A stretch of 37,695 bases of DNA, taken from the NCBI GenBank assembly GCA_964611705.1, contig CAZTAW010000002.1, positions 1 to 37,695 on the forward strand, in the 5' to 3' direction. The stretch is from an uncultured Bacteroidales bacterium. GTDB lineage: Bacteria > Bacteroidota > Bacteroidia > Bacteroidales > JAIOZK01. Below are positions 9,673 through 34,618 of this stretch, piece by piece. The notes beneath the pieces are model-generated. The model was not told the origin of the DNA. It ran no database searches and saw only the letters and a list, made by a program, of their open reading frames with translations. Made by a program: the position numbers and the translations under genes. Position 1 is the stretch's first letter. Every line of letters begins with the position of its first letter.

Positions 9673-9685
9673 CTTACTAACAACA

Positions 9686-10225: not shown

Positions 10226-10248
10226 TTAAAAATTAAATATTTTAAGCC

Positions 10249-17796: not shown

Positions 17797-17893
17797 CGTG
17801 ATTTTAATATTTGAATTAATCAACCAAATGTAGTAAAAAATGTTCTTTTTGTAAGGAGTTTTTGTACTTTTAATGAACAAATAAAATGATGAA

Positions 17894-18799
17894 ATGAAAA
17901 AGAATGTTGCATTGGTAATGTCGAGCGGAGGCGCAAGGGGAATGGCGCATATCGGTATAATTGAAGAACTGCTTAAATCGGGTTTTAATATCACTTCAAT
18001 TGCCGGCTCTTCAATAGGGGCTTTGATTGGGGGCGTGTATGCCAGTGGCAGGCTGAATGAATTTACAACCTGGATGCGCGACGTTTCAAGGATGGATGTT
18101 TTTAAAATGATGGATTTTGCCATTAGCAAAAGAGGATTTATCAAGGGTGAAAAAGTGTTCAGGGAAATTAAAAAATATATTGGCGATGTAAATATAGAAG
18201 ACCTGACAATACCTTATGTCTCCATCGCTACTGACATCATGAACCACAATGAAATAGTTTTTACCACCGGTAGCCTGATCAATGCGATCAGGGCATCGGT
18301 TTCCATACCTACCATTTTTTTACCTTTTGAAATTGACGGTATTGATCTGATTGACGGAGGAATGATCAATCCGTTGCCTTTAAATCGTGTTAAACGACAG
18401 GAAAACGATATTTTAATTGCCGTAAACCTGAACTCTCCGGTAAAATATATTAAACCTGAAAGCGAAACGAACCATCATAAAGAATCTGTTTTCAATAATA
18501 TGCGCAAAACCATCAATAAGAAATGGTCGAGATATTTCAATAACAATAAAAAACAGCGAAGTAAAAAGATGGGGTTTTTTGACCTGCTTACCGGTTCTTT
18601 TGCACTGATGCAGGATAAAATTTCGGAATACACCATACAGCAGTACGCACCGGATATTTTAATTGACATTTCCCGTCATTCCTGCGATACACTTGAATTT
18701 TATAAGGCAAATGAACTGATTGAAGTTGGCAGGGAAGCATGCCGGGAGGCTATTGGAAAATATTTGAAGGCGGGTGAGGACCAAACAGAAAAGCATTAA
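17894..18799 (+). CDS. patatin-like phospholipase (RssA/YlbK-like)
   Basis: 301 aa. It has the oxyanion motif SSGGARGMAHIG, the nucleophile elbow GSSIGA (GxSxG) and the catalytic Asp motif LIDGGMINPLP. Confidence 0.9.
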   Translation: MKKNVALVMSSGGARGMAHIGIIEELLKSGFNITSIAGSSIGALIGGVYASGRLNEFTTWMRDVSRMDVFKMMDFAISKRGFIKGEKVFREIKKYIGDVNIEDLTIPYVSIATDIMNHNEIVFTTGSLINAIRASVSIPTIFLPFEIDGIDLIDGGMINPLPLNRVKRQENDILIAVNLNSPVKYIKPESETNHHKESVFNNMRKTINKKWSRYFNNNKKQRSKKMGFFDLLTGSFALMQDKISEYTIQQYAPDILIDISRHSCDTLEFYKANELIEVGREACREAIGKYLKAGEDQTEKH

Positions 18800-19156: not shown

Positions 19157-19996
19157 TTATCTTGAAACAATCTTGCGCCAGTTGAAATCCCTGGGGTTGA
19201 TGCACATTACAGGTATTTGTGATGTGTTGAAAATGATCTCTTCGTCGTAGCTGCCAAGGATGAATTTGGTAAATCCTTTTTCAGGGTTGGTCATGATCAT
19301 GATCATACCGGCGTCAATAGATGTGGCATAATCAATTACTTTTTTGGTAAAACCCGAACCTTTTTCAAGTTTTTTTACCTCGAAGCCAATATCATTGGCT
19401 TTAAAATGATTGGTAATCAGCACCACGGCATCATCAATCGTATCGTCTTCAACCTGCAAAAGGTGTATTTTTGCATCGAACTGTTTTGCAATGGAAGCAG
19501 CCCATTTGGTTTTTTCCCAGGGGCCGGCATCGCTGGTAATAGGCAATACGATGTTTTTGTAAAGGTCTTTGAAATAGCGTTTTTGTGTAACAATAACCGG
19601 AACTTCGGAGCTGGTAATCACTTTAAGTGCATAGCTGCCTGTAAGCTTTTGCATTCCTACCTTGCCATGCGTGCCAAGATAAATGAGGTTTGCTTTGATG
19701 TCTTTGGCAACTTCGCCGATGGTGGTAAATATTTTACCTTCTTTGGCCATGGTTTCAACCTCCACACCATATTCTTTCTTTGTTTCCTCTGCAATTTCGT
19801 TAAGCTTATTGTCAATTGATTCAAGCCCTTTTTTTTCTTTTTTCAGCTCTGCTTTGGTGTTCTTGTCTATCACATGGAGAATACAGACCTTGAAATCTAA
19901 GAACTTTGCAGCATTAGCTGCCATTTTTATCGCGTTTGCGCATACTTCCGAAAAATCAGTTGGTACCAGAAGTACATTGTTCATTTTTGTTTCCAT
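19157..19996 (-). CDS. tandem-domain universal stress protein (UspA family)
   Basis: 279 aa, the same length and motifs as 16960..17796 (VPTDFSEVC, ILHV, GTHGKVGMQ, IPVMCINP). Confidence 0.85.
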   Translation of the reverse strand: METKMNNVLLVPTDFSEVCANAIKMAANAAKFLDFKVCILHVIDKNTKAELKKEKKGLESIDNKLNEIAEETKKEYGVEVETMAKEGKIFTTIGEVAKDIKANLIYLGTHGKVGMQKLTGSYALKVITSSEVPVIVTQKRYFKDLYKNIVLPITSDAGPWEKTKWAASIAKQFDAKIHLLQVEDDTIDDAVVLITNHFKANDIGFEVKKLEKGSGFTKKVIDYATSIDAGMIMIMTNPEKGFTKFILGSYDEEIIFNTSQIPVMCINPRDFNWRKIVSR

Positions 19997-20682: not shown

Positions 20683-21174
20683 TTAATGCTCAGGCTGATA
20701 ACCCAATAAATTTATTTCCGCTGTTTTGCCCCTGAGTGCAACCGGCCCTAAGTTGCTAAACCGCGGGTCGGGTTTTAGCAGTTTGAATGCCTGCCCGGAT
20801 ATGATCATATCGGTTTTATACTTTTTACAGGCTTCCATAATCCGGCTGAAGTTTTTGAATACAACATCAATATACCTGATGTTGGAGAGCATGGCATAGA
20901 ACAGACTAACGGTGTAAATCACAAAAGCATAAAACAAGGTAAGAAGCAATACCGAAACAATCAGGTTGAATCTTCTGGTAAGTCTTGCATAAAAATAATC
21001 GGTATAGCTGTACAATATAAAAAAAACCGTTCCTCCGATGGCGAAGCCGAAAACCATATTAAGCGGGTGCCAGTTGTTTTGCATTACGCATACAAATACT
21101 CCGGTAAGTAATCCTGCAAAAATAAAAGGGGCCAAAGCTGTTTTAATTTTATGTCTGATAATGGGGGCCATCAA
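20683..21174 (-). CDS. membrane protein carrying only the C-terminal remnant of a class III cyclase domain
   Basis: 163 aa with four hydrophobic helices. The tail RIMEACKKYKTDMIISGQAFKLLKPDPRFSNLGPVALRGKTAEINLLGY aligns by eye with SRLEGLTKLYGASIIMSEDTLIRLNDPSQYNYRFLDIVKVKGKKEAVYIFEI of the upstream cyclase. The metal-binding part of the domain is absent. An ATGA overlap joins it to the cyclase gene. Confidence 0.6.
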   Translation of the reverse strand: MMAPIIRHKIKTALAPFIFAGLLTGVFVCVMQNNWHPLNMVFGFAIGGTVFFILYSYTDYFYARLTRRFNLIVSVLLLTLFYAFVIYTVSLFYAMLSNIRYIDVVFKNFSRIMEACKKYKTDMIISGQAFKLLKPDPRFSNLGPVALRGKTAEINLLGYQPEH

Positions 21175-23273
21175 TCGTATTTGTTTTCAATTTTCTCAAT
21201 GCCGTCCCAGTTTTCCGAAACACCTTCGCGCAGTATTTTTTTGCATCTTTGAATGTAAATATTGGCAGCCAGGTCTTCGGGGTTTTCCGAGAACACGGTA
21301 ATAAACAATTCAAGTGCTTTTTCAAACTGCATGTTTTTATAAAGCTGAAGGGCTTTACTGAATTCACTTTTTGTTTTGATCTTTAGCAGTTTGCTTTCTT
21401 CTTTTTCACCGTCAAGGATTTCAAAAATATAAACCGCTTCTTTTTTCCCTTTTACTTTTACAATATCAAGAAATCTGTAATTATACTGCGATGGATCGTT
21501 CAATCTGATCAATGTATCTTCTGACATAATAATAGAGGCGCCATAGAGTTTCGTCAATCCCTCAAGACGGGAGGTGAGGTTAACGGCATCGGAGATTACA
21601 GTTCCGTCCATACGGCCTTCGCCTCCTACGATGCCAAGCATCAGGTTGCCGGTATGTATGCCAATTCCGATCTGTATAGGAGGCTTTCCAAATTGACTGA
21701 TCACATGGTTAAATTCAACCAGCTTGATCTGCATTTCTATGGCCGCATTGATGGCATCTTCGGCTTTATCGCTGAAGAGTGCCATGATGGAATCGCCGAT
21801 GTATTTGTCAACAAAACCCTGGTTATTCCTGATCACGGGTTCCATGTAACCCAGGTAATTATTCAGGAAATTGAAGTTTTCGCGGGGTGTCATCTCTTCC
21901 GATATTCCTGTAAAATTGCGAATGTCAGCAAAAAGGATGCTCATTTCTTTTTGCACCTGGTCGCCAAGATGGATATCGGCAATGTTTTCTTTCTGCAGGA
22001 ATTCGAGGAATTGTTTGGGAACAAAACGGGAATTCGCCTCATTGATCTTAGAAATACTTTCGATGTATTCGTTGATGCGGCGCGCCATGTCGTTGTATCC
22101 TTCGGTTAAAACACCCAGTTCGTCGTTGGTGCGTACAATGCTGTACTGGTTTATTTCACCGCGTCCTGTGGCCTGCATGTTGACCAGAAGCTCCCTGACG
22201 GGTTCAACAATGTCGCGGGTTGTCCAGGTAACAAAAAATAGCAGGTAAATAACGGCAATGATAATTCCTGTAAATATGCCGGAAAACATTAGCAGGCTGT
22301 CGAGGACATTTACATAGAAAAATTCTCCGTACAGGTTGATCTGTATGGATGAAAAATAGGCCAGGTAATTACCGAAAAGGATTTTCAGTTGCTCGGGTGT
22401 GGGGTTTTCAATCCCGGTTTCACGCAGTGTGGAGACGCTGAGCAATAAATAAAACATCACAATAAATAACGGAAGCAAGGTAGTCATTGCATTTGAAGTC
22501 CAGAGCCTGAATCTTACCTTACCGGCTTTTACTTTGAATATTCTTTTCCTGAGTTCATGGGTTGAATAAACATGATCGATGTAACGGAGATGAACGCGGT
22601 GTTTTTCCCAGAAATAAACAAACAGCAATGTAAGAATGGTTGAAACCAATGAGATGATAAAGAAACGCAGGAAAAAACGTTGTGTGATCTCATCGAAAGT
22701 GTTGGTGAAGATCAAAATAAAAAGCATGTATATCAATGTGATTCCGAATGAAATAAACAATATACCTACATTAATAACAGGAACTTTAAGCAGGAATTTT
22801 TTGCAAAACTTATGCAGCTTTTCCGGTATGGGTTTGTTTTTTCGTTTTTTTGAAAAATAGATTTTGAATGGAAGGTTGAACGCCAGCCCGAGTAAAAAGC
22901 TCACCATTAGCAGCTTGATCAGGGTAATAACAGTAGTATTAAATTTATTACTGCCAGATTGTGTGGAGGAATCGTTACCAACCTCTATATTAATATTTTC
23001 TTCCGGTCCGGTGGTATCAAAAACAATAACGCTGTCGGCCACCAGGCTAATGTCATCTTCGGGAATTATTTTTGTGAGGTTGCCGGCATCGAATTCCTGT
23101 TCTGTTTGTTCAGTATCATTTTGTGGGTGCCGGTTTTGTTGTGCCATCCAGTTAGGCCCGTATTTTGCAAGCAGAAAAAGGGCAATGGGCATAACCAGTA
23201 AAAAATAGATCAATACCGAAACCAGATAAATCCTTAAGCCATGAAACCTGGGTACCTTTCTTCTGTCAGACAT
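21171..23273 (-). CDS. membrane-bound class III adenylate/guanylate cyclase with HAMP domain and C-terminal TPR-like tail
   Basis: 700 aa with a multi-TM N-terminal half and a HAMP-like linker (VEPVRELLVNMQATGRGE...ELGVLTEGYNDMARRINE). The cyclase core has SILFADIRNFTG, KYIGDSIMALF, IGIHTG and DAVNLTSRLEG. Confidence 0.9.
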   Translation of the reverse strand: MSDRRKVPRFHGLRIYLVSVLIYFLLVMPIALFLLAKYGPNWMAQQNRHPQNDTEQTEQEFDAGNLTKIIPEDDISLVADSVIVFDTTGPEENINIEVGNDSSTQSGSNKFNTTVITLIKLLMVSFLLGLAFNLPFKIYFSKKRKNKPIPEKLHKFCKKFLLKVPVINVGILFISFGITLIYMLFILIFTNTFDEITQRFFLRFFIISLVSTILTLLFVYFWEKHRVHLRYIDHVYSTHELRKRIFKVKAGKVRFRLWTSNAMTTLLPLFIVMFYLLLSVSTLRETGIENPTPEQLKILFGNYLAYFSSIQINLYGEFFYVNVLDSLLMFSGIFTGIIIAVIYLLFFVTWTTRDIVEPVRELLVNMQATGRGEINQYSIVRTNDELGVLTEGYNDMARRINEYIESISKINEANSRFVPKQFLEFLQKENIADIHLGDQVQKEMSILFADIRNFTGISEEMTPRENFNFLNNYLGYMEPVIRNNQGFVDKYIGDSIMALFSDKAEDAINAAIEMQIKLVEFNHVISQFGKPPIQIGIGIHTGNLMLGIVGGEGRMDGTVISDAVNLTSRLEGLTKLYGASIIMSEDTLIRLNDPSQYNYRFLDIVKVKGKKEAVYIFEILDGEKEESKLLKIKTKSEFSKALQLYKNMQFEKALELFITVFSENPEDLAANIYIQRCKKILREGVSENWDGIEKIENKYD

Positions 23274-23383: not shown

Positions 23384-24367
23384 ATGTTTATGACCGTATC
23401 AGCAATGCGTTTATTCTTATCATTTATATTTTTAGTTTTATTGTTTCCGCTTTCGGGTCAGGAATTAACAAAGCTCAGATTTACTCCACACTGGCTACCG
23501 CAAGCGCAGTTTGCAGGTTATTATGTTGCCAGGGAAAAAGGTATTTATGAAAAATACGGCCTGGATGTGGAGGTGTTGATGGGAGGGCATAATTTTCCTG
23601 CTATTCCTGTTCTTACGGAAGACAAGACCGATCTGGTAAGTATGTTTCTGTCAGGGGCTATAAAAGCGAAAGCAAGAGGCGTTGATATGGTTGATGTATG
23701 CCAGCTTTCGCAGCGTTCGGCCCTGATATTCGTGTCAAAAAAAGAAAGCGGTATTGATAAACCCGATGGCTTTAACGGAAAGAAAATCGGTGTCTGGCGA
23801 TCCGATTTCCAGGAATTACCCCGCGCTTTTTTAAACAAGTTTGATATTGATGCGGAAATCGTTCCCATTACCAGTACCGTTAATTTATTTCTGTGGGGCG
23901 GAATTGACATCATGTGCGTTATGTGGTACAATGAATATCATCAGATCCTGAATTTCGGAATCAACCCTGATGAATTGAATACCTTTCATTTTTATGATTA
24001 CGATTTAAACTATCCCGAAGACGGTATCTTTTGCATGGAATCATTTTACCATGAAAATAAGGAAGCGGTTGAAAAATTTGTCAAGGCAACAATTGAAGGC
24101 TGGAATTATGCTTTTGCCCATAAAGAAGAAGCGCTTGATATTGTTCTCGAAAGAATGGAAAAGGTAATGGTGCCTGCTAACAGGGCTCACCAGCAATGGA
24201 TGCTGAACCGTATGCAGGATGTTTTTATTTTACAGGAAGGGGATAAGATCACAGGATGTCTTAAGAAGGAGGATTATCTGAGTACTGCCCGTGTTTTGCT
24301 GAAATCCGGGGTTATTGATAATATTCCTGATTTTGAGGAATTTAACAAAACACCGGAGGGGAAATGA
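23384..24367 (+). CDS. periplasmic solute-binding protein, NMT1/THI5 (NitT/TauT-like) family
   Basis: 327 aa with a signal peptide. LRFTPHWLPQAQFAGYYVAREKGIYEKYGLDVEV is typical of NMT1-like SBPs. No permease or ATPase gene is nearby. Its stop overlaps the start of the sensor gene (ATGA). Confidence 0.7.
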   Translation: MFMTVSAMRLFLSFIFLVLLFPLSGQELTKLRFTPHWLPQAQFAGYYVAREKGIYEKYGLDVEVLMGGHNFPAIPVLTEDKTDLVSMFLSGAIKAKARGVDMVDVCQLSQRSALIFVSKKESGIDKPDGFNGKKIGVWRSDFQELPRAFLNKFDIDAEIVPITSTVNLFLWGGIDIMCVMWYNEYHQILNFGINPDELNTFHFYDYDLNYPEDGIFCMESFYHENKEAVEKFVKATIEGWNYAFAHKEEALDIVLERMEKVMVPANRAHQQWMLNRMQDVFILQEGDKITGCLKKEDYLSTARVLLKSGVIDNIPDFEEFNKTPEGK

Positions 24368-26733
24368 AAGCGAAAGGCCTGGGCGTTAAACTGGCATTTT
24401 ATATTATTACGGCTACTATTATCATCGTAGGTGCAATTCTCTGGATCAACCACTCCATTTCAAAAAAACTTTTGCTTAAAAATGTTGAGGAAAATGCCGC
24501 CAATCTCACCCAGTCAACTGTAAACAAAATAGAAGGTGTTTTGGGAACCGTTGCTAAAATACCTGAAAATGAGTCTTATGTATTCAAGGATTTTGATATT
24601 ACCACTGAACAATTGCATTCCTATATTAGAATGATCGTTAAGAACAATAAGGAAGTATTCGGGGGTTGTGTGGCATTTGAACCTTATTCTTATTATAAAG
24701 ATTCTCTTTATTTTGCTCCTTATTGCTATAAGAGCGAGGATTCAATTATCTGTGAGAATCTGGGTACTGAAACGTACCAGTATTTTTACTGGGACTGGTA
24801 CCAGATACCGTCCATTCTGCAAAAGCCTGTCTGGTCGGAGCCGTATTTTGATGAAGGCGGAGGGAATATTTTGATGTGTACCTATTCGGTTCCTTTTTAC
24901 AGGAAAAGTAATGGAGAAAAAAAATTCAGGGGAGTTGTAACGGTTGATATTTCACTGGAATGGCTGGATGAGCTGGTTTCTTGCATAAAAATATACGAGC
25001 ATGGCTACGCTTTTCTGCTTTCGCAAAATGGTACGGTTATTACCCATCCGAATGATAAATATGAAATGCATCAAACTGTTTTCAGCCTGGCAGAAGAATA
25101 TAATGTACCTGAGTTGCGGGAGGTAGGCCGGAAAATGATCAGTGGTAAAAGCGGATTTATTGAGTATACTTCCATTTATACGCATCAGGAGGGTTTTATG
25201 TATTACTATCCTCTTGAAACAACCGGTTGGTCGCTCGCTGTATTGATTCCAAGAGAAGAGTTATTTGCCGACCTTTATGCATTAAACAAACGTTTGCTGT
25301 TAATAGGTGTTATCGGAATTATTGTTTTGCTGGTATTGATAGTCGCTACTTCTCAGCGTATTACGGGTCCGCTGAGAAAACTTGTTAAGGTTACTGATAA
25401 TATAGGAAAAGGTAATTTTGATGTTGTTTTGCCACCAGTAAAGGGAAATGATGAGATCGCCAAGCTTAACAGCTCAATTTCGGCTATGCAGCGCGAATTA
25501 AAGACCTATATCAGGAATTTAAAAGATACCACAGCAGCCAAGGAAAAAATTGAAAGCGAGCTGAAAATTGCCCATGATATTCAACAGGGGATTATTCCGA
25601 AGATATTTCCTCCTTTTCCCGAAAGGGATGATGTTGATCTGTATGCAGTTTTGGATCCGGCACGCGATGTGGGCGGTGACCTATATGATTTTTTCTTCCT
25701 GGATGATTATAATCTCTGTTTTGCAGTGGGTGATGTTTCCGGAAAAGGAGTGCCTGCTTCATTGTTTATGGCGATTACACGTACGTTGTTGCGTGCCAAA
25801 GTTTCAATTGATCTTCCTGTAAATGAAATTGTGAAAAGCATAAATCTGGAATTATGCCAGGGAAACGAAAACAGCATGTTCGTTACTTTCTTCCTTGGTA
25901 TAATTGACCTGAAAAACGGATTAGTGAATTACTGCAATGCGGGGCATAACCTTCCTTATATTCTCAGGAGCGATTGTAAAATTGAAACTCTTACCGGTAC
26001 ACATGGTACGCCAATGGGGATTTTTGAGGATATGGAATATAAAACCGAAACACTACAGCTCAATAATACGGATACACTGGTAATTTATACCGACGGTGTT
26101 CCTGAAGCAATGAATTTCAATAATGAACTGTTTGGAGATGACCGGTTAAAAAAACTTCTTCTGCAATTTTGCAGAACAAACCCAATTGATGTTACAACCG
26201 CAATGGTAAATGAAGTGAAAAAGTATACAGGTGAAGCCGAACAGTCGGATGATATAACGATTTTATCTTTAACCTTCTTTTCTGATAAAAAAGTGAAAAA
26301 ACATATTGACGATACCAGGGAATTGATCCTCAGAAATGATATTGCTGAACTGTATAATCTTAAAAAATATATAGACAGCCTGGCGCTTGAATGGAAGATG
26401 GATCAGAAACTTGTTATTAACATCAACCTCGTTCTTGAAGAAGTGCTGACGAATATTATTTTTTACGGATACGCTGATAAGCAGCAGCATCAGATATTGT
26501 TGTTTTTCAGTAAACAGGATGGCCGACTTGAGATACGCGTTGAAGATGATGCCAGGCCCTTTAATCCCCTTGAAACGGATATACCGGAAGATTTTGACAA
26601 GCCATTGGAGAAACGCAAAATTGGCGGCCTTGGCATACACCTGATGAAAAACTTAATGGATAACTTTAGCTATAAACGCGAAAACAATAAGAATATACTC
26701 ATTCTAATTAAAAATTGTAGTATAAATGCATAA
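24364..26733 (+). CDS. membrane sensor: Cache-like periplasmic domain - HAMP - PP2C/SpoIIE phosphatase - RsbW-type HATPase domain
   Basis: 789 aa. TM1 spans aa 10-30, followed by an extracytoplasmic region of about 280 aa, TM2 (LLLIGVIGIIVLLVLIVATS) and a HAMP linker. PP2C motifs are DVGGDLYDFF, GDVSGKGVPASLFMA, YTDGVPEA and SDDITILSL. The C-terminal HATPase_c_2-like domain has EEVLTNIIFYGY, VEDDARPFNP and GGLGIHLMKNLMD. Confidence 0.85.
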   Translation: MKAKGLGVKLAFYIITATIIIVGAILWINHSISKKLLLKNVEENAANLTQSTVNKIEGVLGTVAKIPENESYVFKDFDITTEQLHSYIRMIVKNNKEVFGGCVAFEPYSYYKDSLYFAPYCYKSEDSIICENLGTETYQYFYWDWYQIPSILQKPVWSEPYFDEGGGNILMCTYSVPFYRKSNGEKKFRGVVTVDISLEWLDELVSCIKIYEHGYAFLLSQNGTVITHPNDKYEMHQTVFSLAEEYNVPELREVGRKMISGKSGFIEYTSIYTHQEGFMYYYPLETTGWSLAVLIPREELFADLYALNKRLLLIGVIGIIVLLVLIVATSQRITGPLRKLVKVTDNIGKGNFDVVLPPVKGNDEIAKLNSSISAMQRELKTYIRNLKDTTAAKEKIESELKIAHDIQQGIIPKIFPPFPERDDVDLYAVLDPARDVGGDLYDFFFLDDYNLCFAVGDVSGKGVPASLFMAITRTLLRAKVSIDLPVNEIVKSINLELCQGNENSMFVTFFLGIIDLKNGLVNYCNAGHNLPYILRSDCKIETLTGTHGTPMGIFEDMEYKTETLQLNNTDTLVIYTDGVPEAMNFNNELFGDDRLKKLLLQFCRTNPIDVTTAMVNEVKKYTGEAEQSDDITILSLTFFSDKKVKKHIDDTRELILRNDIAELYNLKKYIDSLALEWKMDQKLVININLVLEEVLTNIIFYGYADKQQHQILLFFSKQDGRLEIRVEDDARPFNPLETDIPEDFDKPLEKRKIGGLGIHLMKNLMDNFSYKRENNKNILILIKNCSINA

Positions 26734-28234
26734 AGAAAAACAGGTAATTATTACCATTCCCAACGATTTGATGTTTGCAGAACTGGTCATTGAAAATGCA
26801 AGGCAATCAGCCAGGCTGATGGAGTTTGCTGATAAGTCAATTCGTGAAATAGAGCTTGGAACCGAAGAAGCCATTAGTAATATTATAAAGAATGCTTTTG
26901 AAGAAGAACAGGAAGAAACAATTGATGTGATTTTTAATTTGAAACAAACCGGGCTGGAAATTATTATGAAGGAGAAAGGAATTCCATGGGATCCGGAAGT
27001 GGTTTCGGAATTCACACCGGAAAAGTTTAAAGAAAGCGGTTCCGAAGAAGGTTTGGGCATGTATCTGATGAAGCGTTTTATGGATTCATTTTCATTTGAA
27101 AATCTTGGTAAGCAAGGCAAGGAAACACGTTTGTTTAAATATCTTGATCAGAGCAAAATTGAAAATATTCTTTCCAATGAAGAACTCCAAAAAGCAGAAG
27201 AAGAACGCAAAGCTGAAAAGCTTCCCAAAGGCAGTGTAAAGTATACTGTCAGGATGCTGAAGCCGGAAGAAGCTGTTGGGGTTTCTGTTTGTGCCTATGC
27301 TTCGTATGGATATACATATGTTCATGAAGATATTTATTATCCTGACCGTGTTCGTGCTTTGAATAAAAGTGGTGACTTGTTGTCATTTGTAGCCATAAAA
27401 GATAATGGTGAAGTTATTGCCCATGCTGCCCTTGAAAGAGAAGACGATCCGCTTGTACCGGAATTTGGTGTTGCAGCTACAAAACCCAGGTATCGCGGAC
27501 AGGGTTGTTTGAATGCGATCAGTATTTACAGGAAGAAAAAAGCCAAAGAGTTCAATTTCCTGGGTATATACGGAAAAGGCATAACAACCCATTTCTTTTC
27601 GCAAAAATCAATGCTTAAACATGGAATGAATCCTTGTGCATTGTTTTTGTCGAGCGGAATGGAACGAAAGTATAAAGATATAGAACAGAAAAAAATACAG
27701 CGCGAAAGCGTTTTTATTCATTTTCAATATATGAATCCGCCTGAAAAGATTTCAATTTTCCCCCCTGAAAAACATGCCGGTTTTATTGAAGAATTGTTCG
27801 GAAAAATTGGTGTTAAACCTGAAGTTGCAAAAGTTGAAACAGACATCAAGCCCTTAGCAGATGAAGCGAAGTTAAGTGTTAAAACTTACCTGAGTAGCAT
27901 GACTTCCAATATCAAGATCATTGAATACGGGAAAAATGTTGTTAGAGAGGTTAATGCCCAACTCAAAAAGCTATGCCTTGAAAGGGTGGAATCAATTTAT
28001 TTGTTTTTACCCCTATGTGATAAAAATACAGCAGTATATTGCGAAGCATTTGAAAAAATTGGATTTTTCTTTGCCGGAATCAAACCTGCCTCCGGTTTCC
28101 GGGATGCATTGGTTTTGCAGTATCTGAATAATTATGAGATAGATTATGATTTGATCGCAGTAGGTTGCGAATTTTCAGAACGCATAAAAAAATACGTCAG
28201 AAAAAGTCAGCAGGAAGTAAAACAGAATCAATAA
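26726..28234 (+). CDS. RsbW-type anti-sigma-kinase-like domain fused to a GNAT acetyltransferase-like domain
   Basis: 502 aa. The N-terminal domain has GTEEAISNIIKNAFEE, KEKGIPWDP and EGLGMYLMKRFMDSF. The central GNAT has VAIKDNGEVIAHAALE and FGVAATKPRYRGQGCLNAI (motif A). The C-terminal ~180 aa are unassigned. It overlaps the upstream gene by 8 nt. Confidence 0.7.
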   Translation: MHKEKQVIITIPNDLMFAELVIENARQSARLMEFADKSIREIELGTEEAISNIIKNAFEEEQEETIDVIFNLKQTGLEIIMKEKGIPWDPEVVSEFTPEKFKESGSEEGLGMYLMKRFMDSFSFENLGKQGKETRLFKYLDQSKIENILSNEELQKAEEERKAEKLPKGSVKYTVRMLKPEEAVGVSVCAYASYGYTYVHEDIYYPDRVRALNKSGDLLSFVAIKDNGEVIAHAALEREDDPLVPEFGVAATKPRYRGQGCLNAISIYRKKKAKEFNFLGIYGKGITTHFFSQKSMLKHGMNPCALFLSSGMERKYKDIEQKKIQRESVFIHFQYMNPPEKISIFPPEKHAGFIEELFGKIGVKPEVAKVETDIKPLADEAKLSVKTYLSSMTSNIKIIEYGKNVVREVNAQLKKLCLERVESIYLFLPLCDKNTAVYCEAFEKIGFFFAGIKPASGFRDALVLQYLNNYEIDYDLIAVGCEFSERIKKYVRKSQQEVKQNQ

Positions 28235-28272
28235 AAATTAATATCATTGTAACAGAATAAAGTTCTAAAGAC

Positions 28273-28605
28273 ATGGAAATTACTACCCGGAAAAAACAAA
28301 ATTATACCATCGTAGTCATTGATGGAAGACTTGATACAACCAATTATCAGGAACTGGAAAAAGAATTGCAAAAGTTGCTGGAATCAAATGTTAGTAATTT
28401 GATCATTAATTGTGAGAATCTTGAATATATAAGTAGTAGCGGTTTACGTGTGTTTTTAATGTTCCTGAAAAAGATCAGGGCTTTGGATGGAAAGTTTTTG
28501 ATTTGCAATATGCAGGAGAGTATCAGGGAAATATTCCAGATTTCAGGGTTTACAAGTATATTTGATATTTACGAAAATCAGGACAGGGCAGAGGCTGTCA
28601 TGTAA
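28273..28605 (+). CDS. STAS-domain anti-sigma factor antagonist (SpoIIAA/RsbV-like)
   Basis: 110 aa. VIDGRLDTTNYQELEKEL...LIINCENLEYISSSGLRVFL carries the conserved phosphorylatable serine context, with SSSGL corresponding to DSSGL. Confidence 0.9.
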   Translation: MEITTRKKQNYTIVVIDGRLDTTNYQELEKELQKLLESNVSNLIINCENLEYISSSGLRVFLMFLKKIRALDGKFLICNMQESIREIFQISGFTSIFDIYENQDRAEAVM

Positions 28606-28648
28606 TTGTTCTCCCTTCACCTCTTCTTATTTATACACTTGTCTGAAT

Positions 28649-28692
28649 AAGCTGATTTTGACAGAAAAATCATTTGATAAGCTTTTTTTTTT
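28649..28692 (+). terminator. possible intrinsic terminator after the STAS gene
   Basis: An interrupted AT-rich stem is formed by AAGCT 28649..28653 with AGCTT 28680..28684, and TGATTTT 28653..28659 with AAAATCA 28666..28672. It runs into a 10-nt T-run at 28683..28692. The stem is weak. Confidence 0.35.
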
Positions 28693-28709
28693 ATTTTTGC
28701 CGAAAATTA

Positions 28710-28752: not shown

Positions 28753-29130
28753 ATGAAATCAATTAAGGGTAAAAATGTGAAATTGTTTTTTGCGGGTTTG
28801 TTTCTGGCAGTGACAATGGCCCTTGTATATAATAATGCATTTTTTACCCATACTCACAAGCTTCCCGACGGAACGATTATACAACATGCCCACCCCTATA
28901 AAAGTGATGCGGATTCTTCTTCACCCTTCAAAAACCACCATCATACCTCATTTGAATTTCTTGTACTCAATAACCTGGGCGTTTTTATTCTTCTTACCTG
29001 CCTGGCATTTTTCTTTTTCGATAAAGGGATACCATCTTTAATAACTGATCATTACTTTTTTGTAGAATACTCATCTTATCATTTATATCATTTCTATCGG
29101 GGGCCGCCACTTAAAATGATCTCTTTTTAA
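28753..29130 (+). CDS. small His-rich membrane protein (two TM helices), unknown family
   Basis: 125 aa. An N-terminal TM helix is followed by the His cluster HTHKLPDGTIIQHAHPY...KNHHHTSFEF, a second TM (LGVFILLTCLAFFFF) and a C-terminal FYRGPP. It ends 57 nt upstream of the TonB-dependent receptor. Confidence 0.55.
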   Translation: MKSIKGKNVKLFFAGLFLAVTMALVYNNAFFTHTHKLPDGTIIQHAHPYKSDADSSSPFKNHHHTSFEFLVLNNLGVFILLTCLAFFFFDKGIPSLITDHYFFVEYSSYHLYHFYRGPPLKMISF

Positions 29131-29187: not shown

Positions 29188-31569
29188 ATGAAAAAATATT
29201 TATTGGTATTTATATGTATTTATATATCATTTGCATCTTTTAAAATCAATGCACAAAACAAAACAGATGCAAATTTAGTTGGGCACGTAGTTTGCTGCGG
29301 GGAACATATCCCCTTTGCCAGCGTTTATATTAAAGGAACAACCATCGGAACAACAACAGATGAAACAGGGCATTTTCAACTGATCAACCTTCCACCCGGT
29401 GAAGTTGTTGTGAGGGCGCAAGCATTGGGATATAAACCTGCTGAGCAAACAGTGACAGCAGAAACCGGTACAACAAAGGAAATTAAGTTTGAACTGGAAC
29501 GCGATATGTTGGGCCTTGAGGAGGTTGTTGTAACCGGCGACCGGAAAACAAAAGGAAGGCATAATTCTTCTGTTGTTGTTAACTCAATTACACCGGTGCA
29601 TTTCAGGGCAACACAATCAGTAACACTGGGTGAGGGCCTGAATTTTTGTCCTGGCCTGCGGATGGAAAACAATTGCCAGAATTGTGGTTTTAGCCAGATA
29701 AGAATGAACGGAATGGAAGGGCCGTATTCCCAGATTCTTATTAACAATCGTCCCATCTTTAGCGGCCTGGCGGGTGTATATGGTCTTGAGTTGATCCCGG
29801 CCAATATGATAGAACGTGTGGAAGTAGTTAGGGGTGGAGGTTCTGCTTTGTACGGAAGTAATGCAATTGCAGGAACCATTAACCTTATTTTAAAAGACCC
29901 CGGCAAAAGCTCTTATGAATTTGGAACTGACATGGGAGTAATTGGTGTTGGTATGGATGGCGCAGGCGATCCCGCTACGGATTACAATATGAAATTAAAT
30001 ACCTCACTTGTTTCGGGTGATAGCAAAACAGGAATGTCCGTATATGGTTTTCACAGGAACAGGCAGCATTTTGATGCCAACGGAGATGAGTTTTCAGAAC
30101 TGGCTTCAATTGAAAATACAACAATTGGCTCACGCTTGTTTCATCGTTTTGGATATCGTAGTAAACTTACTTTTGATTTTTTCAACATCAACGAAAACAG
30201 AAGGGGTGGAAATAAATTTGAGTATCCCAAACATGAGGCGGATATTGCAGAGGCTTTGGAGCATAATCTTTTCACAGGTGCGCTTTCATTTGATCAGTAT
30301 TTCAGGGATACGGACCTTTTATCGGTATACATCTCAGGACAGAATGTTGACAGAGACTCATATTATGGTGCCAATCAATCTTTGAAAGACTATGGAAAGA
30401 CAAGCGATTTTACTTATAATATCGGAGCACAGTATTTTGCTGACTTCAAATCTTCTGATCTGATCATTGGTATTGAAAATACAGGTGGAAAGCTGAAAGA
30501 CAAAAAGCTTGGCTATCCTGATTATGAAAATGCCGTTATTATTGATGATTCAATTGTTAGCGTTCCGCATGTGCCGAATACGGTAATTGCGGATCAAACT
30601 ACAAATACATTTGGTGCTTTTACACAATATGAAATCAACATCAGTAATCTGAAAGCTTCACTTGGTTTACGATACGATCATTATAACGTAAAGGACAATC
30701 AGCGTGAAGGGGAAACCAAAACCGGTGATGTATTCAGCCCGCGTGTTAACCTGATGTATGATATAACCGAATTTCTGCAGGCACGCCTGAGTTATTCGCA
30801 AGGATACAGGGCGCCTCAGATTTTTGATGAAGACCTGCATATAGAAACTTCGGGCTCCCGACAGGTAATACATCGAAATGCGCCTGACCTGAAGCAGGAA
30901 ACAAGTCATAGTATTACTACATCTTTAACCTTAAATAAAAGGTTTGGTAAAACGAATGTTGAATTTGTTGCAGAGGGTTTTTACATTCAGCTTGTTGATC
31001 CTTTTGCCAATGAATTCAGTGAACCTGATTCAAGTGGTGTTGTGGTTTATACGCGCGTGAATGCTGAGGATGGCGCCAAAGTAATGGGGGTAAATCTGGA
31101 GTTGAATATTGTACCAAAAGGAAATGTTTTATTCAAATCGGGTCTTACAATACAAAAAAGCGAATATGATAAAGCGCAGGAATTTAACGAAAAACGTTTT
31201 TTCAGAACACCTGATTCCTATGGCTATACAATGATGGACTGGAAGGTTAATAATTCCTTTGGTTTTTCGGCTTCCCTTGATTATACGGGTAAAATGCTAG
31301 TGCCTTATTTTGGGGTGGGGCTGCCGGATGCTGATGAGGGAGAATTGCGTGAATCGGATGCTTTCTTTGATTTGGGAGTGAAGCTCAGATATAATGTGAA
31401 AATCAACGGAGCTACATTGCAGATTTTTGGCGGAGTGAAAAACATTTTCAATTCTTATCAGGATGATTTTGATTACGGAGTTGACCGTGACCCGGGCTAT
31501 ATCTATGGCCCGCTGAATCCAAGAACGATTTATTTTGGTATCAATATCGGAAATAAAATCAAGTCCTGA
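29188..31569 (+). CDS. TonB-dependent receptor with N-terminal CarboxypepD_reg-like domain
   Basis: 793 aa with a signal peptide. It has a CarboxypepD_reg-like domain (VYIKGTTIGTTTDETGHFQLINLPPGEVVV), a TonB-box/plug region (LEEVVVTGDR...ERVEVVRGGGSALYGSNAIAGTINL) and a long beta-barrel. The plug contains an unusual NNCQNCG. Confidence 0.9.
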   Translation: MKKYLLVFICIYISFASFKINAQNKTDANLVGHVVCCGEHIPFASVYIKGTTIGTTTDETGHFQLINLPPGEVVVRAQALGYKPAEQTVTAETGTTKEIKFELERDMLGLEEVVVTGDRKTKGRHNSSVVVNSITPVHFRATQSVTLGEGLNFCPGLRMENNCQNCGFSQIRMNGMEGPYSQILINNRPIFSGLAGVYGLELIPANMIERVEVVRGGGSALYGSNAIAGTINLILKDPGKSSYEFGTDMGVIGVGMDGAGDPATDYNMKLNTSLVSGDSKTGMSVYGFHRNRQHFDANGDEFSELASIENTTIGSRLFHRFGYRSKLTFDFFNINENRRGGNKFEYPKHEADIAEALEHNLFTGALSFDQYFRDTDLLSVYISGQNVDRDSYYGANQSLKDYGKTSDFTYNIGAQYFADFKSSDLIIGIENTGGKLKDKKLGYPDYENAVIIDDSIVSVPHVPNTVIADQTTNTFGAFTQYEINISNLKASLGLRYDHYNVKDNQREGETKTGDVFSPRVNLMYDITEFLQARLSYSQGYRAPQIFDEDLHIETSGSRQVIHRNAPDLKQETSHSITTSLTLNKRFGKTNVEFVAEGFYIQLVDPFANEFSEPDSSGVVVYTRVNAEDGAKVMGVNLELNIVPKGNVLFKSGLTIQKSEYDKAQEFNEKRFFRTPDSYGYTMMDWKVNNSFGFSASLDYTGKMLVPYFGVGLPDADEGELRESDAFFDLGVKLRYNVKINGATLQIFGGVKNIFNSYQDDFDYGVDRDPGYIYGPLNPRTIYFGINIGNKIKS

Positions 31570-31741: not shown

Positions 31742-32389
31742 ATGGTAAAGTGCATTCAATACAAAGATCCCAATTCTCAGGAATTGATTCGCGAGCTGGA
31801 AGGATTAAACCAATGCCCGGGTACATGTTTTTTTATTGACATTGTGGGTTCAACCATTATTAAATACAGGTCAGGTTTGAAAGAATGGGGACGTAAGCTG
31901 AACAATACCTTTAATTTTATTTCTTTCCTGAATGACTTCCCTGATAATATCGTTAAAGGCATTGGTGATGAAATTATGCTATACATACCTGATGAAGAGC
32001 TTTTTAAAAAGAAATCCCACAAGGATTATTTTTCGCTTTTACAGGAAATCTACGCCACGCTTGATAATATTAAAAACTTCCCCCTTGAGGACACTTTTTT
32101 ACACTGCAAGGTAGCCATTCATTACTGCAGTGATGTGTACAATATTTCTTTCCTGAAAGGCGCGAATGATTACTATGGCAAAGATATTGACCTTACGGCA
32201 AGGCTTACCTCCAAAGCAAAAACCAACAGAATTGTCTTGAGTGAAGTCTTTTACCAAAAAGTAAAGATTGATTACGATAAAAAATACAAAGGTTTCCAGG
32301 CAACAGCTTTCAATAGAATATCAGAAAAATATATAGAAGATTTTAAAGGTGTACCATTTCCAACTGAGTTTCGCATTATAGAAGTTTAG
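31742..32389 (+). CDS. minimal stand-alone class III nucleotidyl cyclase-like protein
   Basis: 215 aa with no sensor, TM or regulatory domain. CFFIDIVGST, KGIGDEIMLYI, KVAIHYC and GKDIDLTARLTS align by eye with ILFADIRNFT, KYIGDSIMALF, IGIHTG and DAVNLTSRLE of the 700-aa cyclase in this window. Confidence 0.7.
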   Translation: MVKCIQYKDPNSQELIRELEGLNQCPGTCFFIDIVGSTIIKYRSGLKEWGRKLNNTFNFISFLNDFPDNIVKGIGDEIMLYIPDEELFKKKSHKDYFSLLQEIYATLDNIKNFPLEDTFLHCKVAIHYCSDVYNISFLKGANDYYGKDIDLTARLTSKAKTNRIVLSEVFYQKVKIDYDKKYKGFQATAFNRISEKYIEDFKGVPFPTEFRIIEV

Positions 32390-34516: not shown

Positions 34517-34618
34517 CATATTGTTTTTAAATTAAAGAATAAAAAATTAATATTCATTTATACAATTTTTCCAATTGTTTTTATACATTTACATTCCAAA
34601 ATCAATACTTGTTTAACC

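What the first reader, a model, noticed from the sequence alone, without database searches (positions are those of the whole stretch)
26726..28234. RsbW-like kinase domain fused to a GNAT: possible acetylation output of a partner switch
The first ~130 aa read as an anti-sigma-factor-type HATPase (N-box-like EEAISNIIKNAFEE, G-boxes KEKGIPWDP and EGLGMYLMKRF). After a charged linker (EELQKAEEERKAEK), residues ~170-320 read as a GNAT with an intact acetyl-CoA motif A (RYRGQGCLNAI). A further ~180 aa are unassigned. In canonical switches the RsbW-type protein sequesters a sigma factor. Here the same module is covalently attached to an acetyltransferase. Binding of the unphosphorylated STAS partner could therefore switch an enzymatic (acetylation) activity instead of transcription.
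Basis: inference. Interest (0 to 1): 0.65.

Follow-up and report, generated by a model that had tools for sequence, protein, structure and literature searches.

The report
RsbW-like domain fused to acetyltransferase
This gene encodes a widespread but unstudied bacterial protein that joins an anti-sigma-factor-type switch domain to an acetyltransferase, and it sits in an operon with a phosphatase, a kinase and a STAS switch protein, so a phosphorylation switch probably controls acetylation here rather than transcription.

Summary
ORF 26726-28234 (+) encodes a 502-aa protein with three domains. The first is an RsbW/SpoIIAB-type HATPase_c_2 domain (K2). After a flexible charged linker comes a complete GNAT domain. 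The "unassigned" last ~170 aa is a degenerate second GNAT-like half-domain.

The fusion is not an assembly artefact. Two independent assemblies carry it identically, and at least 426 protein clusters (50% identity) from more than 10 phyla share the ~500-aa architecture.

The gene overlaps by 8 nt an upstream gene for a dCache-HAMP-PP2C phosphatase. A STAS gene with the phosphorylatable Ser follows. No sigma factor lies in the operon. Across 83 loci, STAS genes are 20-30 times denser within 500 bp of the gene than further away, in several phyla.

In the family, the GNAT acetyl-CoA motif is nearly invariant, while the ATP-binding residues of K2 are lost in about a quarter of members.

Best reading, not tested: K2 is a tethered STAS receptor that gates the acetyltransferase. 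The substrate is unknown. More than half of the family members have no switch genes nearby. No paper on this fusion was found. I rate it a new variant of a known kind.

The parts
26726..27160 (+). K2: the RsbW/SpoIIAB-type HATPase_c_2 domain of the 502-aa protein (aa 1-145). N-box E48/N52, G1 box E83-x-G85-x-P87, G2 box G109-L-G111.
   Evidence: Pfam HATPase_c_2 E=5e-17. Family profile against RsbW 6m36 E=1e-20. Foldseek RsbW/SpoIIAB TM-scores 0.8-0.94. Motif counts.
27161..27235 (+). Charged, flexible linker (aa 146-170, includes EELQKAEEERKAEK).
   Evidence: pLDDT 55-73. Lowest conservation of the protein: mean majority fraction 0.27 against 0.45-0.54 in the domains.
27236..27730 (+). GNAT acetyltransferase domain (aa 171-335). 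Motif A is Y256-R257-G258-Q259-G260. H233, H289 and Q293 are invariant or nearly so.
   Evidence: Acetyltransf_1 in 28 of 32 family members, best E=2e-12. Full GNAT topology in the model. Foldseek hits to YhbS, ArsN, RimI, Ard1 and PAT. R/Q257 100%, H289 100% and Q293 100% of 234 members.
27731..28234 (+). C-terminal degenerate GNAT-like half-domain (aa 336-502) plus stop codon. Motifs FEKxGFFFAGIxP and LQYLNN. No Pfam family.
   Evidence: Model of the domain alone has pLDDT 89.6. All Foldseek hits are GNATs, but they are partial: about 100 columns, TM-score about 0.4, E about 5e-4. No PDB sequence hit. Q465 99.6% and G451 99% conserved.
24364..26733 (+). Upstream gene (789 aa): membrane dCache + HAMP + SpoIIE/PP2C phosphatase, with a C-terminal canonical RsbW-like kinase domain (K1, aa 658-783, nt 26335-26712). 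It overlaps the K2-GNAT start by 8 nt (ATGCATAA).
   Evidence: Pfam SpoIIE 7e-49, MCP-like_PDC_1 4e-31, HAMP 3e-11, HATPase_c_2 9e-24. Overlap read. K1 motifs are canonical in 18-20 of 20 loci.
28273..28605 (+). Single-domain STAS protein (110 aa, anti-sigma-factor-antagonist type). The predicted phospho-acceptor is S55 in the ISSSGLR motif. The gene starts 38 nt after the K2-GNAT stop.
   Evidence: Pfam STAS 3e-22 and NCBIfam ant_ant_sig 1e-24, above the cut-off. ISS[SA]GLR is kept in all 24 small STAS neighbours aligned over that stretch.
23384..24367 (+). First gene of the operon: secreted NMT1/SsuA-like substrate-binding protein. Its stop overlaps the PP2C gene start by 4 nt. It is the likely ligand-presenting partner of the dCache sensor.
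   Evidence: Pfam NMT1 1e-34. It recurs upstream of the PP2C gene in 12-14 related loci.
31742..32389 (+). Possible former operon member: a small standalone class III cyclase-like protein (215 aa). In relatives it lies directly after the STAS gene.
   Evidence: Guanylate_cyc 28.3 bits against a cut-off of 21.9. Homologues lie downstream of STAS in L004, L005, L009 and L029.

Best explanation
The 502-aa protein is an acetyl-CoA-dependent acyltransferase (a GNAT plus a degenerate GNAT-like lobe). An N-terminal, flexibly tethered RsbW-like domain (K2) probably serves as the docking site for the adjacent STAS protein and thereby gates the enzyme.

Proposed pathway in this operon:
1. The periplasmic binding protein and the dCache sensor detect a ligand.
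2. This changes the balance between the PP2C phosphatase and the K1 kinase, which is fused to the phosphatase.
3. That balance sets the phosphorylation state of STAS Ser55.
4. Unphosphorylated STAS binds K2, as RsbV binds RsbW.
5. Binding frees the acetyltransferase module, or otherwise changes its activity.

K2 thus plays the part of an anti-sigma factor, tethered to an enzyme instead of sequestering a sigma factor.

Shown here: the domain architecture, its conservation, the operon structure, the STAS phospho-site, the adjacency statistics, and the different conservation of catalytic motifs in K1, K2 and the GNAT.

Inferred: STAS-K2 binding, its effect on catalysis, the direction of the effect, and the ligand. 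The acetyl acceptor is unknown.
For: Architecture.

Operon: 4-nt and 8-nt gene overlaps and a 38-nt gap. The same gene order (binding protein, dCache-PP2C, K1, K2-GNAT, STAS) occurs in at least 8 Bacteroidota loci.

STAS adjacency: 23 hits within 500 bp (0.30 per kb) against 0.010-0.017 per kb at 0.5-8 kb. Adjacent STAS genes are seen in Bacteroidota, Cloacimonadota, Armatimonadota, Syntrophomonadaceae, Thermodesulfobacteriota, Verrucomicrobiota and Lentisphaerae. In L011, L013, L072, L076 and L026, STAS-domain genes are the only switch-type neighbours of K2-GNAT, which argues for a direct K2-STAS pairing.

STAS site: the aligned STAS neighbours keep ISS[SA]GLR.

No sigma factor: the only one in the window is an ECF sigma 17 kb away, and no sigma-like cluster recurs among the neighbours.

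Conservation: K1 has canonical N-box, G1 and G2 motifs. Across 234 members, K2 keeps the N-box Asn in only 73% and the G2 GxG in about 80%, and the window protein has E83 in place of the G1 Asp. In the same members the GNAT R/Q257, H289 and Q293 are 100% conserved and the K2 structural residues G85, P87, G128, G131 and K138 are 94-100% conserved. K2 therefore looks selected as a fold and binding module, and the GNAT as an acetyl-CoA-using enzyme.

The fusion is effectively obligate: nearly all of the best 150 representatives are about 500 aa with the GNAT match at about 165-495.
Against: No interaction or activity was computed or measured.

Of 44 loci with at least 3 kb on both flanks, 25 have no STAS, PP2C or K1 gene nearby. 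One example is the Kiritimatiellia loci L081/L082. Many members must therefore use partners encoded elsewhere or work without them. My home-made STAS profile may also miss divergent STAS genes.

K2 keeps most ATP-binding motifs in the majority of members, so it may be an active kinase rather than a passive receptor.

Motif A lacks the final G/A. The usual general-acid Tyr of helix a4 is not clearly present: position 291 is Y or F, and F in the window protein.

A small cyclase-like gene follows STAS in four relatives and could be the real output there.
Confidence: 0.45

Rival explanations
1. The GNAT module is an input, not an output. It binds acetyl-CoA or another acyl-CoA or metabolite and tunes the kinase or binding activity of K2 towards STAS. 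The operon would then integrate an external ligand (through PP2C and K1) with a metabolic signal (through K2-GNAT). The real output would be whatever free STAS binds, for example the small cyclase-like protein that follows STAS in relatives.
For: There are two RsbW-like domains for one STAS, and most K2 domains keep the N-box and G2 motifs. A standalone cyclase-homology gene lies right after STAS in L004, L005, L009 and L029 and is still nearby in the window. From general knowledge, STAS or STAS-like proteins activate cyclases directly in the Pseudomonas HsbA-HsbD and SiaC-SiaD systems.
Against: The cyclase-like gene was seen in only 5 of 83 loci, all close Bacteroidales relatives. Residues beyond the CoA-binding loop (H233, H289, Q293, Y204, P206) and the whole C-terminal lobe are 98-100% conserved, which fits a catalytic and acceptor site better than a simple ligand sensor. 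About 27% of members have lost the K2 N-box Asn, so they have no kinase activity to tune.
Confidence: 0.2
2. K2 is a nucleotide (ATP/ADP) sensing or dimerising regulatory domain that controls the acetyltransferase without any STAS partner. The operon in Bacteroidota would be a secondary recruitment of this enzyme next to an otherwise self-contained PP2C/K1/STAS switch.
For: More than half of the well-flanked loci have no switch genes near the gene (L081/L082). In 9 loci from at least 5 phyla the conserved neighbour is instead an uncharacterised Amidohydro_3 hydrolase. RsbW and SpoIIAB are dimers whose partner choice depends on the bound nucleotide (general knowledge).
Against: STAS genes are 20-30 times enriched immediately beside the gene, in several unrelated phyla. 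In several loci STAS-domain genes are the only switch-type neighbours of K2-GNAT. Members that have lost the N-box Asn could not sense nucleotide.
Confidence: 0.15
3. The acetyltransferase acts within the switch itself. K2 recruits STAS (or K1/PP2C) as the substrate, and Lys or N-terminal acetylation of a switch component provides feedback or a second layer of control.
For: A docking domain fused to an enzyme is a common way to select a protein substrate. Foldseek hits for both GNAT lobes include many protein N-terminal acetyltransferases, such as RimI, Ard1 and Naa50. Conservation across phyla is very high (34-59% identity over 500 aa), which would fit a conserved protein substrate.
Against: The Foldseek hits are generic for the GNAT fold and include small-molecule enzymes such as ArsN, PAT and SpeG. 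Members without nearby STAS would lack the substrate. No conserved acceptor Lys in STAS was examined.
Confidence: 0.1
4. The GNAT is catalytically dead. The protein would be a scaffold, or an RsbW-like kinase or anti-factor with a large non-enzymatic C-terminal domain.
For: The window protein is below Pfam's GNAT threshold. Motif A ends in L/M instead of G/A. The second lobe is clearly degenerate.
Against: Motif A R/Q is 100% conserved, G260 90%, and H289 and Q293 100% across 234 members. Other members score up to E=2e-12 against Acetyltransf_1.
Confidence: 0.07

Closest known systems
RsbW / SpoIIAB anti-sigma-factor serine kinases (HATPase_c_2) with RsbV / SpoIIAA STAS antagonists
   Same: K2 matches RsbW over its whole length (E=1e-20; TM-scores up to 0.94). 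It has the N-box E/N and the G2 GLG. It is encoded next to a single-domain STAS with the phospho-Ser motif and a PP2C phosphatase.
   Different: It is covalently joined to a two-lobed GNAT module. No sigma factor is in the operon. The G1 Asp is Glu in the window protein and in about half of the family, and the N-box Asn is lost in about 27%. It scores far below NCBIfam's RsbW equivalog cut-off (52 against 145 bits).
RsbT-RsbU of the Bacillus sigma-B pathway (an RsbW-type switch kinase that activates an enzyme, the PP2C RsbU, after release from STAS proteins); general knowledge
   Same: It is a precedent for an HATPase_c_2 protein whose partner is an enzyme rather than a sigma factor, with STAS proteins deciding which partner is bound.
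   Different: RsbT and RsbU are separate proteins and the enzyme is a phosphatase. Here the switch domain is fused in cis to an acetyltransferase.
Partner switches with enzymatic outputs in Pseudomonas: HsbR-HsbA-HsbD and SiaABCD (a STAS or STAS-like protein activates a diguanylate cyclase); general knowledge
   Same: A PP2C and kinase pair controls the phosphorylation of a small switch protein, and the output is an enzyme activity rather than transcription.
   Different: In those systems the switch protein itself binds the enzyme. Here the enzyme carries its own RsbW-like receptor domain, and the chemistry is acyl transfer rather than c-di-GMP synthesis.
Mycobacterial cAMP-regulated protein lysine acetyltransferase (Mt-Pat Rv0998 / MSMEG_5458); general knowledge
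   Same: An N-terminal regulatory domain is joined by a linker to a GNAT, and ligand binding to the regulatory domain relieves autoinhibition. This is the closest analogy for how the protein may work.
   Different: The regulatory domain there is a cyclic-nucleotide-binding domain and the signal is a small molecule. No cNMP domain is present here, and the predicted signal is a phospho-regulated protein partner.
Multidomain partner-switch fusions such as M. tuberculosis Rv1364c and Vibrio fischeri SypE (PP2C and an RsbW-like kinase in one polypeptide); general knowledge
   Same: The upstream gene fuses a SpoIIE/PP2C phosphatase to an RsbW-like kinase, as these proteins do.
   Different: This comparison concerns the neighbouring gene, not the 502-aa protein. 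Here the fusion also carries dCache and HAMP sensor domains, and in most relatives the kinase is a separate gene.
Tandem-GNAT enzymes (mycothiol synthase MshD, Eis, N-myristoyltransferase); general knowledge
   Same: One canonical GNAT is followed by a second GNAT-like lobe that has lost the CoA motif and may help to form the acceptor site.
   Different: There is no detectable sequence relation. The second lobe is only a partial GNAT (b-b-a-b-a-b-b). None of these enzymes has a HATPase_c_2 domain.

Membership tests
RsbW/SpoIIAB-type HATPase_c_2 switch kinases | Bergerat (GHKL) fold of the HATPase_c_2 type | tested here: met
   Pfam PF13581 62.5 bits against a cut-off of 27.4. RsbW 6m36 E=1e-20. 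Foldseek TM-scores 0.8-0.94.
RsbW/SpoIIAB-type HATPase_c_2 switch kinases | ATP-binding motifs: N-box E...N, G1 D-x-G, G2 G-x-G | tested here: inconclusive
   The window protein has E48, N52 and G109-L-G111, but E83 instead of the G1 Asp. In the family, Asn is kept in 73%, GxG in about 80%, and the G1 position is D in 45% and E in 46%.
RsbW/SpoIIAB-type HATPase_c_2 switch kinases | A cognate single-domain STAS antagonist with a phosphorylatable Ser, encoded nearby | tested here: met
   STAS gene 28273-28605 with the ISSSGLR motif. 20-30 times enrichment of STAS within 500 bp across loci.
RsbW/SpoIIAB-type HATPase_c_2 switch kinases | Binds and inhibits a sigma factor encoded in the same operon | tested here: not met
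   No sigma factor gene in the operon. The only one in the window is an ECF sigma at 9100-9672. No recurrent sigma-like neighbour in 83 loci. Binding itself cannot be tested here.
RsbW/SpoIIAB-type HATPase_c_2 switch kinases | Ser kinase activity on the STAS partner | not testable with these tools
   Needs an in vitro phosphorylation assay.
GNAT (GCN5-related N-acetyltransferase) superfamily | GNAT fold b1-a1-a2-b2-b3-b4-a3-b5-a4-b6-b7 | tested here: met
   The secondary-structure order in the model over aa 174-335. Foldseek hits to many solved GNATs, TM-scores 0.6-0.8.
GNAT (GCN5-related N-acetyltransferase) superfamily | Significant match to GNAT sequence profiles | tested here: met
   The window protein alone is below threshold (16.9 against 20.7 bits). 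However, 28 of 32 aligned homologues hit PF00583 (best E=2e-12), and 17 of 32 hit PF13673.
GNAT (GCN5-related N-acetyltransferase) superfamily | Motif A Q/R-x-x-G-x-G/A in the b4-a3 loop (binds the CoA pyrophosphate) | tested here: inconclusive
   The motif is R257-G-Q-G260-C-L262. R/Q is 100% and G260 90% conserved, but the sixth position is L, M or F instead of G or A.
GNAT (GCN5-related N-acetyltransferase) superfamily | Acyl-CoA binding and acyl transfer | not testable with these tools
   Needs biochemical assays.
Partner-switching systems | A PP2C phosphatase, an RsbW-type kinase and a STAS switch protein encoded together | tested here: met
   SpoIIE 7e-49, the K1 HATPase_c_2 9e-24 and STAS 3e-22 lie in one overlapping gene cluster. 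The arrangement is conserved in at least 8 relatives.
Partner-switching systems | A target whose activity depends on which partner the switch protein binds | not testable with these tools
   The K2-GNAT protein is the candidate target from its position and domain content only.
cNMP-regulated protein acetyltransferases (Mt-Pat type) | A cyclic-nucleotide-binding domain fused to the GNAT | tested here: not met
   No cNMP-binding family was found in the protein or in 32 homologues.
Tandem-GNAT enzymes (MshD / Eis type) | A second GNAT-fold domain following the first | tested here: inconclusive
   The C-terminal model hits only GNATs, but over about 100 columns with TM-score about 0.4 and E about 5e-4. 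The profile-profile comparison of the two lobes is not significant, and there is no sequence match to MshD or Eis.

The most novel reading that the evidence does not exclude
This would be a cis partner switch that converts serine phosphorylation into acetylation. The RsbW-like domain acts as a tethered 'anti-enzyme' that holds the acetyltransferase inactive, as an anti-sigma factor holds sigma. Dephosphorylated STAS, produced when a periplasmic ligand activates the dCache-PP2C, pulls the domain away. Extracellular sensing would then be written directly into protein (or metabolite) acetylation in many anaerobic bacterial phyla, without transcription.
Probability: 0.3. Interest if true: 0.75.

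Novelty: new variant of a known kind. Interest (0 to 1): 0.6.

Why it matters
Partner switches are mostly known as controllers of sigma factors, with a few cases that control diguanylate cyclases, secretion or phosphatases. Bacterial acetyltransferases with known regulatory domains are few: cAMP-, amino-acid- or NADP-sensing ones.

This family has at least 426 clusters at 50% identity and occurs in at least 540 species-representative genomes from more than 10 phyla. If it is an acetyltransferase gated by a STAS/RsbW-type interaction, it would link two major post-translational signalling systems, Ser phosphorylation and acylation. It would also give an assayable output for the many partner switches in Bacteroidota and anaerobes that have no cognate sigma factor.

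It would further show that the anti-sigma fold has been reused as a portable regulatory domain for enzymes. The family is annotated only as 'ATP-binding protein' or 'GNAT family N-acetyltransferase', and I found no paper about it in seven full-text searches.

Tried and rejected
1. Natural split forms (K2 and the GNAT module as separate genes) would have argued for a physical K2-GNAT interaction. The three candidates failed. L083 has a 10-N scaffold gap in the linker, and the GNAT frame stays open across it. L085 and L086 differ by +1 and -1 indels at the same spot after 'GNET', so they are frameshifts. The shorter 'representatives' of about 320-390 aa begin inside K2 or at internal Met codons. 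L087, the contig that encodes one of them (P0240), is only 1 kb. I conclude that the fusion is effectively obligate and I make no split-gene argument.

2. Internal duplication: a profile-profile comparison of the GNAT lobe with the C-terminal lobe was not significant (E=0.13). It aligned only the 'K.GF' / 'EK.GFFF' segment.

3. A PDB sequence search with the C-terminal profile gave only noise.

4. Promoter and terminator scans found no more sites than in shuffled sequence. The sigma-70 consensus is also unsuited to Bacteroidota.

5. Anti-phage defence: no PADLOC match for K2-GNAT, PP2C-K1, STAS or the SLFN variant.

6. The exact-sequence look-up of the window protein found nothing on record.

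7. I tested whether loss of the K2 N-box goes with the presence of K1 or STAS nearby. No trend was seen, but only 6 of 85 loci have lost the Asn.

8. Assembly artefact: rejected.

9. Literature: no paper on a HATPase_c_2-GNAT fusion was found. A review of STAS-only proteins (PMC8256260) has no occurrence of 'acetyl'.

Full report

The ORF at 26726-28234 (+) starts with ATG and encodes 502 aa.

Pfam places HATPase_c_2 at aa 17-137 (E=5e-17, 62.5 bits, cut-off 27.4) and HATPase_c at aa 46-121 (29.6 bits, cut-off 26.4). In the window protein alone, the GNAT family Acetyltransf_1 reaches only 16.9 bits against a cut-off of 20.7 (E=0.008, aa 205-260). NCBIfam's RsbW and SpoIIAB models match the first 148 residues but score far below their equivalog cut-offs.

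A protein search returned 200 relatives at E<=0.001, and the 120 listed are almost all 490-530 aa and full length. They come from Bacteroidales, Nitrospirota, Planctomycetota, Acidobacteriota, Kiritimatiellia and others. Their source names are only 'ATP-binding protein', 'GNAT family N-acetyltransferase' or 'anti-sigma regulatory factor / GNAT superfamily N-acetyltransferase'.

In an alignment of 32 members (34-59% identical to the window protein, 31 invariant columns), all 32 hit HATPase_c_2. 28 hit Acetyltransf_1 (best E=2e-12), and 17 hit Acetyltransf_10. The central GNAT is therefore established at family level.

**2. Structure**

An AlphaFold2 model built from that alignment has mean pLDDT 87.8 and pTM 0.69. 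It shows:
- a compact N-terminal domain (aa 5-139);
- a poorly defined helical linker (pLDDT 55-73 over aa 141-170);
- the complete GNAT order b1-a1-a2-b2-b3-b4-a3-b5-a4-b6-b7 over aa 174-335.

Foldseek against the PDB gives B. subtilis RsbW from the RsbV/RsbW complex (6m36, 6m37; TM-scores relative to the target up to 0.94) and SpoIIAB (1l0o, 1til, 1th8) as the top hits. These are interleaved with many GNATs, such as YhbS, ArsN, RimI, Ard1 and phosphinothricin acetyltransferases, with TM-scores of 0.6-0.8. The family profile matches the RsbW sequence over residues 3-140 with E=1e-20.

Their order is a-b-b-a-b-a-b-b-a. All significant Foldseek hits are GNATs (Naa50, RimI, Ard1, SpeG and others), but only over about 100 columns, with TM-score about 0.4 and E about 5e-4. 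Sequence methods see nothing there: no Pfam family, no PDB sequence hit, and no significant similarity to the first GNAT lobe. I read it as a degenerate second GNAT-like half-domain that has lost the CoA motif. It remains extremely conserved in the motifs FEKxGFFFAGIxP and LQYLNN, with Q465 at 99.6% and G451 at 99% of 234 members.

**3. Not an artefact**

The window comes from a microbial-mat metagenome. Two independent run assemblies carry 24300-28700 as single contigs at depths 41 and 34. The only difference is one base at 28683, outside the genes.

An exhaustive search with only the GNAT plus C-terminal part (aa 166-502) found 426 clusters (50% identity) at E<=1e-30 and 1098 at E<=1e-10. 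Nearly all of the best 150 are about 500 aa with the match at about residues 165-495, so they have room for K2.

**4. Context in the window**

Four genes are packed head to tail on the + strand.
- 23384-24367 encodes a secreted NMT1/SsuA-like binding protein.
- 24364-26733 encodes a membrane protein with dCache, HAMP and a SpoIIE/PP2C phosphatase domain (E=7e-49). At its C-terminus it carries a second HATPase_c_2 domain, here called K1 (aa 658-783, E=9e-24).
- 26726-28234 is the finding. Its ATG overlaps the upstream stop in ATGCATAA.
- 28273-28605 follows after 38 nt. It encodes a 110-aa STAS protein (Pfam 3e-22; NCBIfam anti-sigma factor antagonist 1e-24, above the cut-off) with the motif ISSSGLR, in which S55 corresponds to the phosphorylated Ser of SpoIIAA and RsbV.

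K1 and K2 are 32% identical over 92 residues. The only sigma factor in the 37.7-kb window is an ECF sigma at 9100-9672, which has its own downstream genes and lies 17 kb away.

**5. Context in relatives**

I called ORFs in 82 related loci plus the window and searched them with iterated profiles seeded from the window's own domains.

In Bacteroidota relatives the order binding protein, dCache-PP2C, K1, K2-GNAT, STAS recurs. It is seen in the window and in L001, L005, L006, L018, L023, L025 and L029. L004 and L028 show the same order, but without a detected binding protein. K1 is a separate gene in most of these loci and is fused to the phosphatase only in the window, L001 and L018.

Other orders or orientations occur in L014, L022, L027, L036, L037, L038, L044 and L045. 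These include Cloacimonadota, Armatimonadota, Syntrophomonadaceae and Thermodesulfobacteriota. In L011, L013, L026, L072 and L076 (Bacteroidales, a deltaproteobacterium, Verrucomicrobia, Lentisphaerae) STAS-domain genes are the only switch-type neighbours.

STAS hits number 23 within 500 bp of the gene (0.30 per kb), against 0.010-0.017 per kb between 0.5 and 8 kb. All 24 small STAS neighbours aligned over that stretch keep ISS[SA]GLR.

The link is not universal. Of 44 loci with at least 3 kb on both sides, 16 have STAS within 3 kb and 19 have any switch gene. The Kiritimatiellia loci L081 and L082 have none.

**6. Which residues are under selection?**

In 20 K1 domains the N-box E and N, the G1 D-x-G and the G2 GGLG are canonical.

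In 234 full-length family members, K2 residues fall into two classes.
- ATP-binding residues are only partly kept: N-box Glu 90%, N-box Asn 73%, G2 glycines about 80%. The G1 position is Asp in 45% and Glu in 46%, and the window protein has E83.
- K2 residues with no role in ATP binding are highly conserved: G85, P87, G128 and G131 at 98-100%, and K138 at 94%.

In the same members the GNAT residues are more strongly conserved:
- the first motif A position is R in 226 and Q in 8, exactly the canonical Q/R;
- G260 is 90% conserved;
- H289 and Q293 are 100%, Y204 and P206 99.6%, and H233 98%.

The sixth motif A position is L, M or F rather than G or A. The usual a4 Tyr is Y or F, and F in the window protein, so the chemistry is probably intact but not textbook.

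The pattern suggests that the acetyl-CoA-using module is the conserved business end. K2 appears to be conserved as a fold and binding surface, and its phosphotransfer activity is dispensable in a sizeable minority.

**7. Most likely mechanism**

The operon holds a complete partner switch (sensor phosphatase, canonical kinase K1 and STAS) plus one more protein. That protein sits where a sigma factor gene would sit in a sigB- or sigF-type operon, and it carries its own RsbW-like domain.

The simplest reading is that STAS, once dephosphorylated, binds K2 as RsbV binds RsbW, and that this changes the activity of the tethered acetyltransferase. The flexible linker would allow K2 to occlude the enzyme and then release it, in the manner of an anti-sigma factor. 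The direction of the effect, the ligand and the acetyl acceptor are all unknown.

I give this 0.45. The rivals are:
- the GNAT module is a metabolic input to a K2 kinase, with another output such as the small cyclase-like protein (0.2);
- K2 is a STAS-independent nucleotide-sensing or dimerising regulator (0.15);
- switch components are themselves the acetylation substrate (0.1);
- the GNAT is catalytically dead (0.07).

**8. Comparison with known systems**

K2 works like RsbW or SpoIIAB, but it fails the family's functional hallmark, since there is no sigma factor partner in the operon. It scores well below the equivalog thresholds, and its G1 box is atypical.

The closest precedents for how it may work are the following. 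These rest on my knowledge of the literature, not on tests made here.
- RsbT activating the phosphatase RsbU.
- The Pseudomonas HsbA-HsbD and SiaC-SiaD switches, which activate diguanylate cyclases.
- The mycobacterial cAMP-gated acetyltransferase Mt-Pat, whose N-terminal regulatory domain autoinhibits a GNAT.

The upstream PP2C-kinase fusion resembles Rv1364c and SypE.

I found no publication on a HATPase_c_2-GNAT protein in seven full-text searches. A review of STAS-only proteins does not mention acetylation. Absence from this library is not proof of absence.

**9. Verdict**

I class it as a new variant of a known kind, namely a partner-switch module with an acetyltransferase as its likely output. 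Interest is 0.6.

Noticed in passing
window 31742-32389 (+); L004 10359-11015, L005 10967-11656, L009 2013-2681, L029 9934-10581: A small (215 aa) standalone class III cyclase-homology protein lies directly after the STAS gene in four Bacteroidales relatives. In the window it is separated from STAS by a small membrane ORF (28753-29130) and a TonB-dependent receptor gene (29188-31569), which looks like an insertion into an older operon. It could be a second or alternative output of the switch. It has a weak PADLOC PycC match only (E=8e-4).
   Followed up: partly
L015, L047, L051, L054, L060, L068, L070, L073, L079 (for example L073 6219-7895 -): An uncharacterised Amidohydro_3 metal hydrolase (~560 aa; nearest solved structures 3igh and 3icj, 'uncharacterized metal-dependent hydrolase') lies immediately beside the K2-GNAT gene in 9 loci from at least 5 phyla. 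It is either divergent upstream or overlapping downstream. Most of these loci have no STAS. This may be an acylation/deacylation pair and a clue to a small-molecule or peptide substrate.
   Followed up: partly
P0212 and P0234 (651-652 aa); L084 752-2710: A rare variant of the family carries an extra C-terminal Schlafen AlbA_2 domain (E about 4e-21), a domain usually linked to nucleic-acid binding.
   Followed up: partly
L012 1-2990; L020 6483-9497: Two full-length K2-GNAT paralogues lie in tandem in two Bacteroidota genomes.
   Followed up: no
L085 about 3866-3872; L086 about 553-557: Two related contigs carry different indels (+1 and -1) at the same spot near the end of K2, right after 'GNET'. 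This splits the gene into two called ORFs. It could be an error-prone site, a pseudogene or a slippery site.
   Followed up: partly
window 21171-23273 (-): Divergently upstream of the operon lies a 700-aa membrane protein with HAMP, a class III adenylate/guanylate cyclase domain (E=3e-23) and a TPR-like tail. With the small cyclase-like gene, this makes two cyclase-type genes flanking the switch operon.
   Followed up: no
L032, L037, L038, L039, L041 (Syntrophomonas), L080: In Syntrophomonas loci the K2-GNAT gene is followed directly by a ~900-1000-aa polytopic membrane protein with HEAT repeats.
   Followed up: no
window 9100-11289 (+): An ECF sigma factor (9100-9672) is followed by a 179-aa ORF with no Pfam family, a likely anti-sigma factor, and by a DUF4097 'toastrack' protein. 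This is a separate, ordinary ECF module.
   Followed up: no
window 34457-36376 (+); 16960-18144 (-) and 19157-19996 (-); 11359-13257 (-): Other genes in the window: a caspase-domain (Peptidase_C14) protein with a CARDB domain, two universal stress protein genes, and a BNR-repeat protein with a type IX secretion sorting tail. The last points to Bacteroidota as the source organism.
   Followed up: no
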